Of a DNA stretch of 37,672 nt, positions 3,032 through 4,423 are shown piece by piece. The notes beneath the pieces are model-generated. The model was not told the origin of the DNA. It did no database searches and was given only the letters and a program-made list of their open reading frames with translations. Positions within the stretch are counted from its first letter, which is position 1; every line of letters starts with the position of its first letter. Made by a program: the position numbers and the translations under genes. This DNA comes from Escherichia coli (GTDB lineage: Bacteria; Pseudomonadota; Gammaproteobacteria; Enterobacterales; Enterobacteriaceae). The stretch lies in the NCBI RefSeq assembly GCF_051903065.1, contig NZ_CP178442.1. One strand, given 5' to 3'.

Positions 3032-3603
3032 TCAGAACTGAGCTATCACGACTCTAGTCTTTCCTTCGGTATCTTTCCCCTCAAGATCGTCTATCACACC
3101 TTTAGGGTTAGTCACCCAACCTTCAGGGTCATATACAAAGCATACTAGCGTCTCACAGTCCGGATGTGCACGGTAACGGGCCATATCAATGAGCAGTTCC
3201 TCTCCAATTTTATTTGCCCCTAGAGAGCGGCGAGTTTTCTTCACTTCAATGACAATCTTCTCTTTCTTCAGAAGAAAATCCTGTCTGGATGATGAACCTG
3301 CGAAGCTAGGTGAATTTTCTTCAGGTCTGACATCATTAAAATGCAGCAGCAGAAGAGCATGAACAAGATCCTGTACATCATACTCGTCATTAATTTCAAG
3401 CGGCGTTCTGTCATTGTATCGTTGCTTTAATTGACGACAAAAAGCTGGAAATTTATTGAGTATATTTATAATCAAATCCAGTTCGGCATGTTTTGTTGCT
3501 ATAGTCGATGCCGTGCCGGAGTAAGTTAAATCGTCTCTGGCTGCATCAAAAATAGGTTTGTAATGTCTAACCAATCCCTGATAATTACTAGACCAAGCAA
3601 TCC
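3032..3603 (-). pseudogene. 5'-truncated hypothetical gene (possible PD-(D/E)xK-type nuclease fold) interrupted by IS26; the first 24 codons of the ORF-track product lie inside IS26
   Basis: Minus-strand ORF 3032..3676 runs through the IS26 left end at 3604; the native N-terminus must have been removed by the insertion. D..E.K-like motif (DVRPEE...IVIEVKK) is only suggestive. Confidence 0.45.
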
Positions 3604-4423
3604 GGCACTGTTGCAAATAGTCGGTGGTGATAAACTTATCATCCCCTTTTGCTGATGGAGCTGCACATGAACCCATTCAAAGGCCGGCATTTTCAGCGTG
3701 ACATCATTCTGTGGGCCGTACGCTGGTACTGCAAATACGGCATCAGTTACCGTGAGCTGCAGGAGATGCTGGCTGAACGCGGAGTGAATGTCGATCACTC
3801 CACGATTTACCGCTGGGTTCAGCGTTATGCGCCTGAAATGGAAAAACGGCTGCGCTGGTACTGGCGTAACCCTTCCGATCTTTGCCCGTGGCACATGGAT
3901 GAAACCTACGTGAAGGTCAATGGCCGCTGGGCGTATCTGTACCGGGCCGTCGACAGCCGGGGCCGCACTGTCGATTTTTATCTCTCCTCCCGTCGTAACA
4001 GCAAAGCTGCATACCGGTTTCTGGGTAAAATCCTCAACAACGTGAAGAAGTGGCAGATCCCGCGATTCATCAACACGGATAAAGCGCCCGCCTATGGTCG
4101 CGCGCTTGCTCTGCTCAAACGCGAAGGCCGGTGCCCGTCTGACGTTGAACACCGACAGATTAAGTACCGGAACAACGTGATTGAATGCGATCATGGCAAA
4201 CTGAAACGGATAATCAACGCCACGCTGGGATTTAAATCCATGAAGACGGCTTACGCCACCATCAAAGGTATTGAGGTGATGCGTGCACTACGCAAAGGCC
4301 AGGCCTCAGCATTTTATTATGGTGATCCCCTGGGCGAAATGCGCCTGGTAAGCAGAGTTTTTGAAATGTAAGGCCTTTGAATAAGACAAAAGGCTGCCTC
4401 ATCGCTAACTTTGCAACAGTGCC
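3604..4423 (+). mobile_element. IS26 (IS6 family), copy 1, 820 bp
   Basis: 14-bp terminal inverted repeats GGCACTGTTGCAAA (3604-3617) and TTTGCAACAGTGCC (4410-4423) enclosing the Tnp26 gene; matches the IS26 sequence as I recall it. Confidence 0.93.
3667..4371 (+). CDS. tnpA: IS26 transposase Tnp26 (234 aa)
   Basis: Protein MNPFKGRHFQRDIILWAVRWYCKYGISYRELQEMLAERGVNVDHSTIYRWVQRY... is the characteristic IS26/IS6-family DDE transposase; the ORF-track start at 3649 is 6 codons upstream of the canonical Met. Confidence 0.93.
   Translation: MNPFKGRHFQRDIILWAVRWYCKYGISYRELQEMLAERGVNVDHSTIYRWVQRYAPEMEKRLRWYWRNPSDLCPWHMDETYVKVNGRWAYLYRAVDSRGRTVDFYLSSRRNSKAAYRFLGKILNNVKKWQIPRFINTDKAPAYGRALALLKREGRCPSDVEHRQIKYRNNVIECDHGKLKRIINATLGFKSMKTAYATIKGIEVMRALRKGQASAFYYGDPLGEMRLVSRVFEM

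What the first reader, a model, noticed from the sequence alone, without database searches (positions are those of the whole stretch)
3032..3676. Backbone gene decapitated by IS26 and fused in frame to IS26-end sequence
The minus-strand ORF continues 73 nt into the left end of IS26, so its first 24 codons are IS-derived and the native N-terminus is missing. Either this is a dead pseudogene, or a hybrid gene expressed from signals at the IS26 end. The remaining protein has a D...E.K arrangement (DVRPEE/IVIEVKK) suggestive of a PD-(D/E)xK nuclease fold, which would be compatible with a defence or maintenance role lost on acquisition of the resistance island.
Basis: inference. Interest (0 to 1): 0.4.

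Follow-up and report, generated by a model that had tools for sequence, protein, structure and literature searches.

The report
IS26-truncated remnant of plasmid nuclease gene
This is the leftover back three-quarters of a plasmid nuclease gene whose front end and promoter were deleted next to an IS26 insertion sequence; the in-frame run into IS26 is a chance by-product, so it is an ordinary pseudogene.

Summary
The window is a pSD11-type IncX4 cfr plasmid. IS26 starts at 3604, and the minus-strand ORF 3032-3676 takes its first 24 codons from IS26. IS26-free IncX4 plasmids carry an intact 263-aa gene here. The window keeps residues 74-263 and lacks residues 1-73.

This was a deletion, not a simple insertion. 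1,438 bp of backbone is replaced by IS26-cfr-IS26 plus a Tn2/Tn3 tnpA remnant, with no target-site duplication. The lost DNA held the 5' 220 bp of the gene, its upstream region and a neighbouring 159-aa gene, and it is nowhere else in the plasmid.

Expression of the hybrid ORF is unlikely. Its ATG directly follows an in-frame TGA, it has no Shine-Dalgarno sequence, no promoter-like site lies upstream, and a terminator-like hairpin follows cfr. All three outward frames of the IS26 end contain start codons, so a fusion is expected by chance.

Verdict: ordinary IS26-generated pseudogene, mislabelled "malate dehydrogenase" in RefSeq. The intact solitary nuclease family is uncharacterised, sits on mobile elements, and is often cut by IS elements.

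The parts
3032..3676 (-). Hybrid ORF of 214 aa: 24 IS26-derived codons, one split Arg codon, then native codons 75-263 and the stop. RefSeq annotates it as WP_106667900.1 'malate dehydrogenase'.
   Evidence: the ORF listing; annotation of pSD11; exact protein found on 10 contigs
3032..3603 (-). Native 3' 572 bp of the IncX4 nuclease gene (residues 74-263 of the 263-aa protein WP_000163250.1).
   Evidence: 100% identity to L001 4283-4854
3604..3676 (-). 73 nt of the IS26 left end read antisense. It supplies the ATG and 24 codons, and an in-frame TGA lies directly upstream at 3677-3679.
3038..3472 (-). PD-(D/E)xK nuclease domain (PF18742 REase_DpnII-MboI), complete in the remnant.
3239..3280 (-). 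Catalytic motif: codons for D182 (3278-3280), E193 (3245-3247) and K195 (3239-3241), native numbering.
   Evidence: These residues are invariant in a 45-sequence alignment (whose numbering is native minus 1; native positions). They align to the D-EVK motif of EcbAgaN.
3604..4423 (+). IS26 copy 1 (820 bp, tnp26 at 3667-4371). Its left end forms the truncation junction.
4534..4561 (-). Terminator-like hairpin (12-bp stem plus T-run) between cfr and IS26 copy 1. It argues against read-through from cfr into the remnant.
4843..5901 (-). cfr 23S rRNA methyltransferase gene, the cargo of the IS26-bounded unit.
5969..6788 (+). IS26 copy 2, in direct orientation, differing from copy 1 at 1 nt.
6789..7488 (+). 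3' remnant of a Tn2/Tn3-family tnpA with the 38-bp terminal inverted repeat (7451-7488). The backbone resumes at 7489, which corresponds to L001 6293.

Best explanation
The ORF is a non-functional 5'-truncated remnant (pseudogene) of a 263-aa solitary PD-(D/E)xK nuclease gene from the IncX4 accessory region.

The most likely history is as follows. A Tn2/Tn3-type transposon sat near the integrase gene. IS26 entered its tnpA. An IS26-mediated adjacent deletion, or recombination between two IS26 copies, then removed everything between that IS26 and codon 74 of the nuclease gene. The removed DNA comprised 1,438 bp of backbone plus most of the transposon. The cfr unit sits between two directly oriented IS26 copies as a pseudo-compound transposon. 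It may have joined before or after the deletion.

The deletion took away the nuclease gene's start codon, ribosome-binding site, upstream region and the first 73 residues of a conserved N-terminal helical domain. The reading frame stays open 73 nt into IS26 and meets an ATG there. This happens only because the antisense frames of the IS26 end are open, so the ATG is not a functional start.

Shown: the junction, the deletion, the nuclease identity, and the absence of recognisable expression signals. Inferred: the order of events and the lack of expression.
For: Window 1-3603 equals L001 1252-4854 at 100% and window 7489-10050 equals L001 6293-8854. L001 4855-6292 is absent and gives no BLAST hit anywhere in the 37,672-bp window.

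The sequences flanking the IS26 copies differ (AGCAATCC to the left of copy 1, GTTTTCTC to the right of copy 2), so there is no target-site duplication. The right side of the island is a tnpA remnant ending in the 38-bp inverted repeat.

The intact gene encodes 263 aa. Full-length homologues of 262-265 aa cover 100% of the query down to about 42% identity. The deleted 73 residues are conserved: median 51% identity across the family and 8 columns at >=90%, including invariant W47 and F69.

ATG 3676 is directly preceded by an in-frame TGA and has negligible Shine-Dalgarno pairing (-1.7 kcal/mol). No other in-frame start upstream of the nuclease core has one either. No sigma-70-like site lies on the minus strand anywhere in 3677-4773. 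A 12-bp-stem terminator-like hairpin lies between cfr and IS26. All three outward frames of the IS26 end contain start codons.

The same junction occurs in only 7 PLSDB plasmids of one lineage. The hybrid protein is on 10 contigs, against >=1000 for the intact one. IS26 adjacent deletion and pseudo-compound transposon formation are established behaviour (PMC8722046).
Against: The nuclease domain, with all catalytic residues, is intact and the frame is open. PGAP calls it a CDS. The remnant is 100% identical to the intact gene, so there has been no time for decay to reveal loss of constraint. The promoter and Shine-Dalgarno scans are consensus-based and cannot exclude weak antisense transcription across IS26 or low-level translation. 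No expression data were available.
Confidence: 0.85

Rival explanations
1. The hybrid ORF is a real expressed fusion gene. Antisense or read-through transcription across IS26 would produce a 214-aa protein with an IS26-derived N-terminus and an intact nuclease domain. Such a protein might be deregulated, because part of the N-terminal helical domain is gone.
For: The frame is open, there is an ATG, and the PF18742 domain with D182/E193/K195 is complete. cfr lies upstream on the same strand. RefSeq annotates the ORF as a CDS.
Against: There is no Shine-Dalgarno sequence, and an in-frame TGA sits immediately before the ATG. No promoter-like site lies on the minus strand inside IS26. A strong terminator-like hairpin follows cfr. 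The fusion is expected by chance. An unregulated non-specific DNase would probably be toxic and selected against (inference).
Confidence: 0.08
2. A hybrid promoter, made of the -35 TTGCAA in the IS26 inverted repeat and a -10 in the flanking backbone, drives a shorter N-terminally truncated nuclease from an internal start codon.
For: TTGCAA lies in the terminal repeat facing outward, and TCTAGT (4 of 6 matches to TATAAT) lies 18 nt downstream. From my own knowledge, IS26-derived -35 boxes are a documented way of activating adjacent genes.
Against: The -10 lacks the conserved A at position 2 and failed the scan criteria. The only in-frame starts before the catalytic core are TTG codons at 3574 and 3475, with no Shine-Dalgarno pairing (+0.7 and +0.1 kcal/mol). 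The later starts, GTG 3244 and ATG 3184, lie at or beyond the ExK motif and would lack the catalytic residues.
Confidence: 0.05
3. The gene is not truncated: a ~190-214-aa form is the natural length, and the 263-aa form elsewhere is an over-extended annotation.
For: None beyond the ORF being open.
Against: Forty-five homologues from many Enterobacterales genera align from residue 1, with conserved N-terminal positions. There are more than 2,500 hits, and the best are 262-265 aa at 100% coverage. The AF2 model has pLDDT 80-97 over residues 1-100.
Confidence: 0.01

Closest known systems
IS26-mediated adjacent deletions and IS26-bounded pseudo-compound transposons (Harmer & Hall; PMC8722046)
   Same: Two directly oriented 820-bp IS26 copies flank a resistance gene. 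There is no 8-bp duplication. Backbone next to one IS26 is deleted, leaving a truncated gene that abuts the inverted repeat. A sister plasmid (pEC3-5) has one IS26 and no cargo, as expected from loss or gain of a translocatable unit.
   Different: Nothing unusual. The sampled plasmids do not reveal the order of events, and no ancestor with a complete Tn2 at this site was found.
Pfam PF18742 REase_DpnII-MboI domain (PD-(D/E)xK superfamily)
   Same: Strong profile match (167 bits against a cutoff of 27). The model has a restriction-endonuclease-like fold, and the D...ExK motif is invariant.
   Different: No match to the classical DpnII family profile and no methyltransferase neighbour, so it is not a demonstrable GATC type II enzyme. 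The family has its own conserved ~117-aa N-terminal helical domain.
bAgaN, the nuclease effector of long-B pAgo (BPAN) abortive-infection systems (PMC10620215; PDB 23wq EcbAgaN)
   Same: It is the closest solved relative by sequence (E 0.004 over the nuclease core; PADLOC Aga_Helical-REase E 4.5e-29). Both have a two-domain layout of an N-terminal helical part and a C-terminal REase fold with a D-EVK motif. EcbAgaN is an Mn2+-dependent non-specific DNase.
   Different: No Argonaute gene lies nearby in any of the 9 contexts examined. Only the nuclease domain aligns. This protein is 263 aa, against 390 aa for EcbAgaN.
Detocs variants with a PF18742 REase effector (bioRxiv 10.1101/2023.01.24.525353, Fig. 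S8 legend)
   Same: The same Pfam nuclease domain is used as a defence effector.
   Different: No two-component (kinase and phosphotransfer) partner genes are adjacent. This protein is solitary.
IS26-derived hybrid promoters and IS-gene fusion ORFs
   Same: The -35 TTGCAA in the inverted repeat faces the remnant, and the ORF crosses the junction.
   Different: The -10 is poor, there is no Shine-Dalgarno sequence, and the ATG lies upstream of where such a promoter would start transcription.

Membership tests
PD-(D/E)xK nuclease, Pfam PF18742 REase_DpnII-MboI | Profile match above the curated gathering score | tested here: met
   167.7 bits against a cutoff of 27, E 1.7e-49 (remnant). 167.2 bits for the intact protein.
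PD-(D/E)xK nuclease, Pfam PF18742 REase_DpnII-MboI | Restriction-endonuclease-like alpha-beta-beta-beta-alpha-beta core fold | tested here: met
PD-(D/E)xK nuclease, Pfam PF18742 REase_DpnII-MboI | Conserved acidic residues and Lys of the D...(D/E)xK motif | tested here: met
   D182, E193 and K195 (native numbering) are invariant in 45 homologues and align to the D-EVK motif of EcbAgaN.
PD-(D/E)xK nuclease, Pfam PF18742 REase_DpnII-MboI | Metal-dependent nuclease activity | not testable with these tools
   Needs purified protein.
Classical type II restriction enzyme DpnII/MboI (GATC) with cognate methyltransferase | Match to the DpnII family profile | tested here: not met
   PF18742 was the only Pfam family at E <= 0.1-1.
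Classical type II restriction enzyme DpnII/MboI (GATC) with cognate methyltransferase | Adjacent DNA methyltransferase gene | tested here: not met
   No methyltransferase lies among the neighbours in IncX4 or in the other eight genomic contexts examined.
bAgaN / BPAN (long-B pAgo-associated nuclease) | Gene adjacent to a long-B Argonaute | tested here: not met
   No Argonaute or PIWI-domain neighbour in any context.
bAgaN / BPAN (long-B pAgo-associated nuclease) | Homology over the full length, including the N-terminal helical domain | tested here: not met
   The PADLOC alignment covers query 102-248 and profile 213-362 of 378 only. The PDB alignment covers query 140-220 only.
IS26 (IS6/IS26 family) | 820-bp element with 14-bp terminal inverted repeats GGCACTGTTGCAAA and a single tnp26 gene | tested here: met
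   3604-4423 and 5969-6788. Inverted repeats found at both ends. Transposase ORFs at 3649-4371 and 6014-6736.
IS26 (IS6/IS26 family) | 8-bp target-site duplication expected after simple copy-in insertion | tested here: not met
   The four flanks are AGCAATCC, CTCTAGAG, TTTTTGAA and GTTTTCTC. This fits deletion, recombination or conservative targeting rather than a fresh insertion.
Functional IS-gene fusion or IS26 hybrid-promoter gene | Recognisable promoter and ribosome-binding site serving the fused start | tested here: not met
   No minus-strand promoter-like site in 3677-4773. Shine-Dalgarno pairing of -1.7 kcal/mol. The hybrid -10, TCTAGT, is weak.
Anti-phage / anti-MGE defence gene (for the intact protein) | Location in mobile elements or defence islands next to known defence genes | tested here: inconclusive
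   Contexts found: an ICE next to a DUF4145 protein weakly resembling PD-T7-4 (E 2e-4); a prophage end at icd next to a Peptidase_U49 (Lit-like, weak) gene; the edge of a filamentous prophage; a tmRNA island; and, for a 42%-identical homologue, a position directly after a type I CBASS and a ThsB-like TIR gene. Two contexts are plain chromosomal. No PADLOC model covers the full-length family.
Anti-phage / anti-MGE defence gene (for the intact protein) | Experimental protection against phage or plasmid | not testable with these tools
   No publication on this family was found.

The most novel reading that the evidence does not exclude
The intact 263-aa protein may represent an uncharacterised solitary 'helical domain + REase' nuclease. 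It would act as a single-gene defence or abortive-infection (or anti-plasmid) effector carried by plasmids, prophages and ICEs of Enterobacterales. Its repeated inactivation by IS elements could then be selectively favoured rather than incidental: IS26 in the cfr IncX4 lineage, IS1 in the ColV/aerobactin IncF lineage, and at least three other cut points. The advantage could be relief of a cost, or easier acquisition of foreign DNA.
Probability: 0.2. Interest if true: 0.5.

Novelty: already known. Interest (0 to 1): 0.15.

Why it matters
The finding matters little in itself. Truncated genes at IS26 boundaries are routine in resistance plasmids, and this plasmid type (pSD11, pGXEC3/6, pEC14cfr) is published.

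Three practical points follow. First, the 214-aa CDS in RefSeq is a chimeric pseudogene and should not be treated as a protein family member. Second, the name 'malate dehydrogenase' attached to this whole family is a propagated annotation error, because the only detectable domain is a PD-(D/E)xK nuclease. Third, the intact gene belongs to a widespread, unstudied family of solitary nucleases on mobile elements. Most sampled plasmid copies of that gene are IS-generated fragments, which makes the family a reasonable candidate for a defence-gene screen.

Tried and rejected
(1) I tried to read the original pSD11 paper (PMC4291432), but it is not held. What the authors said about this ORF is therefore unknown to me. 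A later paper places the module downstream of hns and does not discuss the remnant.

(2) I looked for an ancestor plasmid with a complete Tn2 at the 7488/7489 site and an intact nuclease gene. PLSDB has none. Only the six plasmids of this lineage share that junction.

(3) I tested whether the 159-aa transmembrane/helical gene lost in the deletion is a conserved partner, which would make a two-gene system. It travels with the nuclease gene in IncX4 and ColV plasmids (99.8% identity over 1,658 bp). It is absent next to all more distant homologues, so I rejected this idea.

(4) I tested read-through from cfr as a source of expression. This is unlikely because of the terminator-like hairpin at 4561->4534.

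(5) I considered a true DpnII/MboI-type GATC restriction enzyme that relies on host Dam. There is no support: no DpnII-family profile match and no methyltransferase neighbour. The Pfam name describes a fold clade, not a specificity.

(6) NCBIfam gave only noise (OlsG, E 0.006, far below its cutoff).

(7) A Foldseek search of PDB found no significant whole-protein match. The N-terminal domain resembles only generic helical bundles.

Full report
**What the window is.** The window is 37,672 bp, the same length as plasmid pSD11 (NZ_KM212169.1). It matched pSD11 at 100% in every segment I compared, including 2750-3603 and both island junctions. pSD11 is an IncX4 conjugative plasmid from swine E. 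coli that carries cfr. Two other 37,672-bp records, from lettuce and tomato isolates, gave the same 100% matches.

**Checking the observation.**
- The 14-bp IS26 terminal repeat GGCACTGTTGCAAA begins at 3604, and its inverted copy ends at 4423, which gives an 820-bp IS26. A second copy in the same orientation lies at 5969-6788. The two copies differ at one base.
- The ORF listing reports a 214-aa minus-strand ORF at 3032..3676. Its first 73 nt (3676 down to 3604) lie inside IS26. That is 24 whole codons plus one base of codon 25. Codon 25 still reads Arg because native AGG becomes CGG.
- The stated coordinates and the '24 IS-derived codons' are therefore exact.

**Recovering the intact gene.**
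- The backbone segment 2750-3603 was searched against PLSDB. This found IS26-free IncX4 plasmids such as NZ_CP023905.1 (locus L001).
- BLAST of L001 against the window shows L001 1252-4854 = window 1-3603 at 100% and L001 6293-8854 = window 7489-10050.
- L001 4855-6292 (1,438 bp) is replaced in the window by 3604-7488. That stretch holds IS26, a 1.5-kb cfr segment, IS26, and a 700-bp 3' remnant of a Tn2/Tn3-family tnpA ending in its 38-bp inverted repeat at 7451-7488.
- In L001 the gene is 792 bp and encodes 263 aa (WP_000163250.1). The window retains residues 74-263 and lacks residues 1-73, the ribosome-binding site and everything upstream.
- The deleted segment also carried a 159-aa gene with a hydrophobic N-terminus. 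The segment gives no BLAST hit anywhere else in the plasmid.
- The 8-bp sequences flanking the IS26 copies are all different (AGCAATCC, CTCTAGAG, TTTTTGAA, GTTTTCTC), so there is no target-site duplication.
- This is the signature of an IS26 adjacent deletion or of recombination between IS26 copies, not of a simple insertion. Both behaviours are established for IS26 (PMC8722046).

**How widespread the junction is.**
- A 400-bp probe across the junction finds it in exactly seven PLSDB records. These are pSD11, the two 37,672-bp plasmids, pGXEC3, pGXEC6, a 62.7-kb plasmid, and pEC3-5 (NZ_CP060983.1).
- pEC3-5 equals the window with the two IS26 copies collapsed to one and no cfr. It is either the precursor into which a cfr translocatable unit inserted next to the resident IS26, or a descendant that lost cfr. 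The truncation therefore cannot be attributed to cfr acquisition as such.
- pEC14cfr has a junction 19 bp further into the gene. I read this as a secondary or independent event.
- The exact hybrid protein occurs on 10 contigs in the large protein collection. The intact protein occurs on at least 1,000.

**What the protein is.**
- Pfam gives a single strong hit, PF18742 REase_DpnII-MboI. The E-value is 1.7e-49 for the remnant (residues 69-213, profile 3-149 of 150) and 2.3e-49 for the intact protein (residues 118-262).
- PADLOC's best model is Aga_Helical-REase (E 4.5e-29), aligned over the nuclease part only.
- The closest solved chain by sequence is EcbAgaN (23wq, E 0.004), aligned over residues 140-220.
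- EcbAgaN is the Mn2+-dependent DNase effector of the long-B Argonaute BPAN abortive-infection system. It is described as two domains with a C-terminal restriction-endonuclease fold and a D-EVK motif (PMC10620215).
- In that alignment EcbAgaN's 'RIDLYL...IIEVK' matches 'RQDFLL...VIEVK' here.
- A 45-sequence alignment of homologues shows D182, E193 and K195 (native numbering) as invariant. E147, D164, R166, E168 and E169 are invariant too.
- An AlphaFold2 model built on that alignment has mean pLDDT 83. Its layout is an N-terminal helical domain (helices 5-20, 40-58, 63-74, 79-108, 112-132, with a small hairpin) followed by an alpha-beta-beta-beta-alpha-beta core.
The motif Asp is more probably D182 than the Asp of DVRPEE.
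- RefSeq and UniRef call this family 'malate dehydrogenase'. Neither Pfam nor NCBIfam gave any dehydrogenase match, so I regard the name as a propagated error.

**Does the missing N-terminus matter?**
- Homologues from Escherichia, Salmonella, Pantoea, Pectobacterium, Serratia, Morganella, Yersinia and others are 262-265 aa and align from residue 1.
- The deleted residues 2-73 have a median 51% identity to the reference across the family. Eight columns are conserved at >=90%, including invariant W47 and F69. The model is confident there (pLDDT 80-97).
- The lost segment is a genuine, constrained part of the protein. It removes four of the structural elements of the N-terminal domain.

**Is the hybrid ORF expressed?** Five observations argue against it.
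- ATG 3676 is immediately preceded by an in-frame TGA (3677-3679), so it is simply the first possible start after a stop. Its upstream 15 nt pair with the anti-Shine-Dalgarno sequence at only -1.7 kcal/mol.
- The consensus scan finds no sigma-70-like site on the minus strand anywhere between 3677 and 4773, that is, throughout IS26 copy 1.
- The outward-facing -35 TTGCAA in the IS26 repeat faces GTCTAG at 17 nt or TCTAGT at 18 nt, which is a weak -10. A promoter there would start transcription downstream of the ATG in any case. The next in-frame starts ahead of the catalytic core are TTG codons without a Shine-Dalgarno sequence.
- cfr lies upstream on the same strand, but a 12-bp-stem terminator-like hairpin with a T-run (4561->4534) separates it from IS26.
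- Reading outward from this IS26 end, the three frames remain open for >=399, 73 and 32 nt, and each has a start codon. The frame-0 case is visible as a second junction-spanning ORF, 3526-4194. Any gene cut by this end acquires an IS26-derived 'N-terminus', so the fusion carries no information.

I put the pseudogene reading at about 0.85. Expression data would be needed to close the question.

**What the intact gene probably does (inference).**
- The gene is solitary. The 159-aa upstream gene travels with it only in a recently shared 1.66-kb segment (99.8% identity between IncX4 and ColV-type plasmids). It is absent next to more distant homologues.
- No methyltransferase and no Argonaute is adjacent in any of nine contexts.
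- The contexts are mostly mobile or island-like:
  - an ICE-like element in Pectobacterium, next to a DUF4145 protein that weakly resembles PD-T7-4;
  - the edge of a filamentous prophage in Yersinia ruckeri;
  - the icd-proximal end of a lambdoid prophage in Morganella, beside a Lit-like Peptidase_U49 gene;
  - a tmRNA-adjacent island;
  - for a 42%-identical homologue, a position directly after a type I CBASS (cyclase plus 4TM effector) and a ThsB-like TIR gene.
- The nuclease domain is of the kind used as an effector in BPAN and in some Detocs variants.
- The most likely role is therefore a self-contained defence or abortive-infection DNase, with the N-terminal helical domain sensing or restraining activity. 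This is guilt by association and untested. No PADLOC model covers the full-length family. The literature searches I ran (pSD11/cfr/IncX4, and PF18742 or DpnII-MboI) turned up nothing on this family.

**Recurrent damage.**
- Searching the intact gene against PLSDB gives 335 records, of which 152 cover >=80% of the gene.
- In an evenly spaced sample of 60 records, about 21 were full length. The rest were fragments ending at nt 227, 404 or 658, or beginning at nt 221 (this lineage) or 240.
- The 1-658 form is cut by IS1 on aerobactin/ColV-type IncF plasmids. It encodes the 220-aa P0123, seen on at least 891 contigs.
- Whether this exceeds the background rate of IS damage in accessory regions was not tested.

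**Verdict.** It needs correction on the mechanism (deletion, not insertion), the catalytic Asp, the link to cfr acquisition and the likelihood of expression. The feature is an ordinary IS26-generated pseudogene in a published plasmid type, and interest is low. The only mildly novel thread is the uncharacterised solitary nuclease family itself.

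Noticed in passing
window 3032-3676 and homologues: RefSeq and UniRef name this whole nuclease family 'malate dehydrogenase'. Pfam and NCBIfam detect only the PF18742 nuclease domain and no dehydrogenase domain. This looks like a propagated misannotation.
   Followed up: partly
L014-L016 (IncF/ColV-type contigs), gene at 6001-6663: The same nuclease gene is cut at nt 658 by IS1 on aerobactin/sit virulence plasmids. The product is the 220-aa P0123, seen on >=891 contigs. Other plasmids keep only nt 1-227 or 1-404. In an evenly spaced sample of 60 of the 335 PLSDB hits, only about a third were full length.
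   Followed up: partly
L009 (NZ_CP060983.1, pEC3-5): This sister IncX4 plasmid has the identical gene-IS26 junction but a single IS26 and no cfr. It is either the precursor or a product of loss of the cfr translocatable unit.
   Followed up: partly
window 3526-4194 (-): A 222-aa antisense ORF runs the length of tnp26 and out of the IS26 left end into the backbone. It is a second junction-spanning ORF, and it shows that such fusions are by-products of IS26's open antisense frames.
   Followed up: yes
window 4534-4561 (-): A strong terminator-like hairpin (12-bp stem, 4-nt loop, T-run) lies about 280 bp downstream of the cfr stop codon, inside the AT-rich segment between cfr and IS26 copy 1.
   Followed up: no
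window 4062 vs 6427: The two IS26 copies differ at one base (IS26 position 459, G vs A). The two transposase translations are identical, so the change is synonymous.
   Followed up: no
window 6789-7488: A 700-bp 3' remnant of a Tn2/Tn3-family tnpA with its 38-bp inverted repeat (7451-7488) abuts the backbone 45 bp upstream of the tyrosine recombinase gene. No PLSDB plasmid outside this lineage has a transposon end at this exact site.
   Followed up: partly
L001 5513-5992 (-), absent from the window: A 159-aa protein with a hydrophobic N-terminus and a helical remainder has no Pfam or PADLOC hit. It was lost in the same deletion. It co-travels with the nuclease gene between IncX4 and ColV plasmids but not with distant homologues.
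   Followed up: partly
L013 4120-7777: A 42%-identical homologue of the nuclease lies at the end of a gene array: type I CBASS (cyclase plus 4TM effector), a ThsB-like TIR protein (best PADLOC hit PDC-M50B), an unknown 156-aa protein whose gene overlaps the nuclease start, and then the nuclease. This may be a multi-gene defence system that uses this nuclease.
   Followed up: partly
L008 13054-13232 (pGXEC3): pGXEC3 carries a second, 96.6%-identical copy of window 2838-3016 directly after its Tn remnant. It also has 86-91%-identical matches to parts of the segment deleted in pSD11. This suggests recombination with a divergent IncX4 backbone.
   Followed up: no
window 2748-3041 (+): A 97-aa ORF is convergent with the nuclease remnant and overlaps its stop by 10 nt. 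It is annotated as a hypothetical protein at two different lengths in different records and has no Pfam or PADLOC hit.
   Followed up: no
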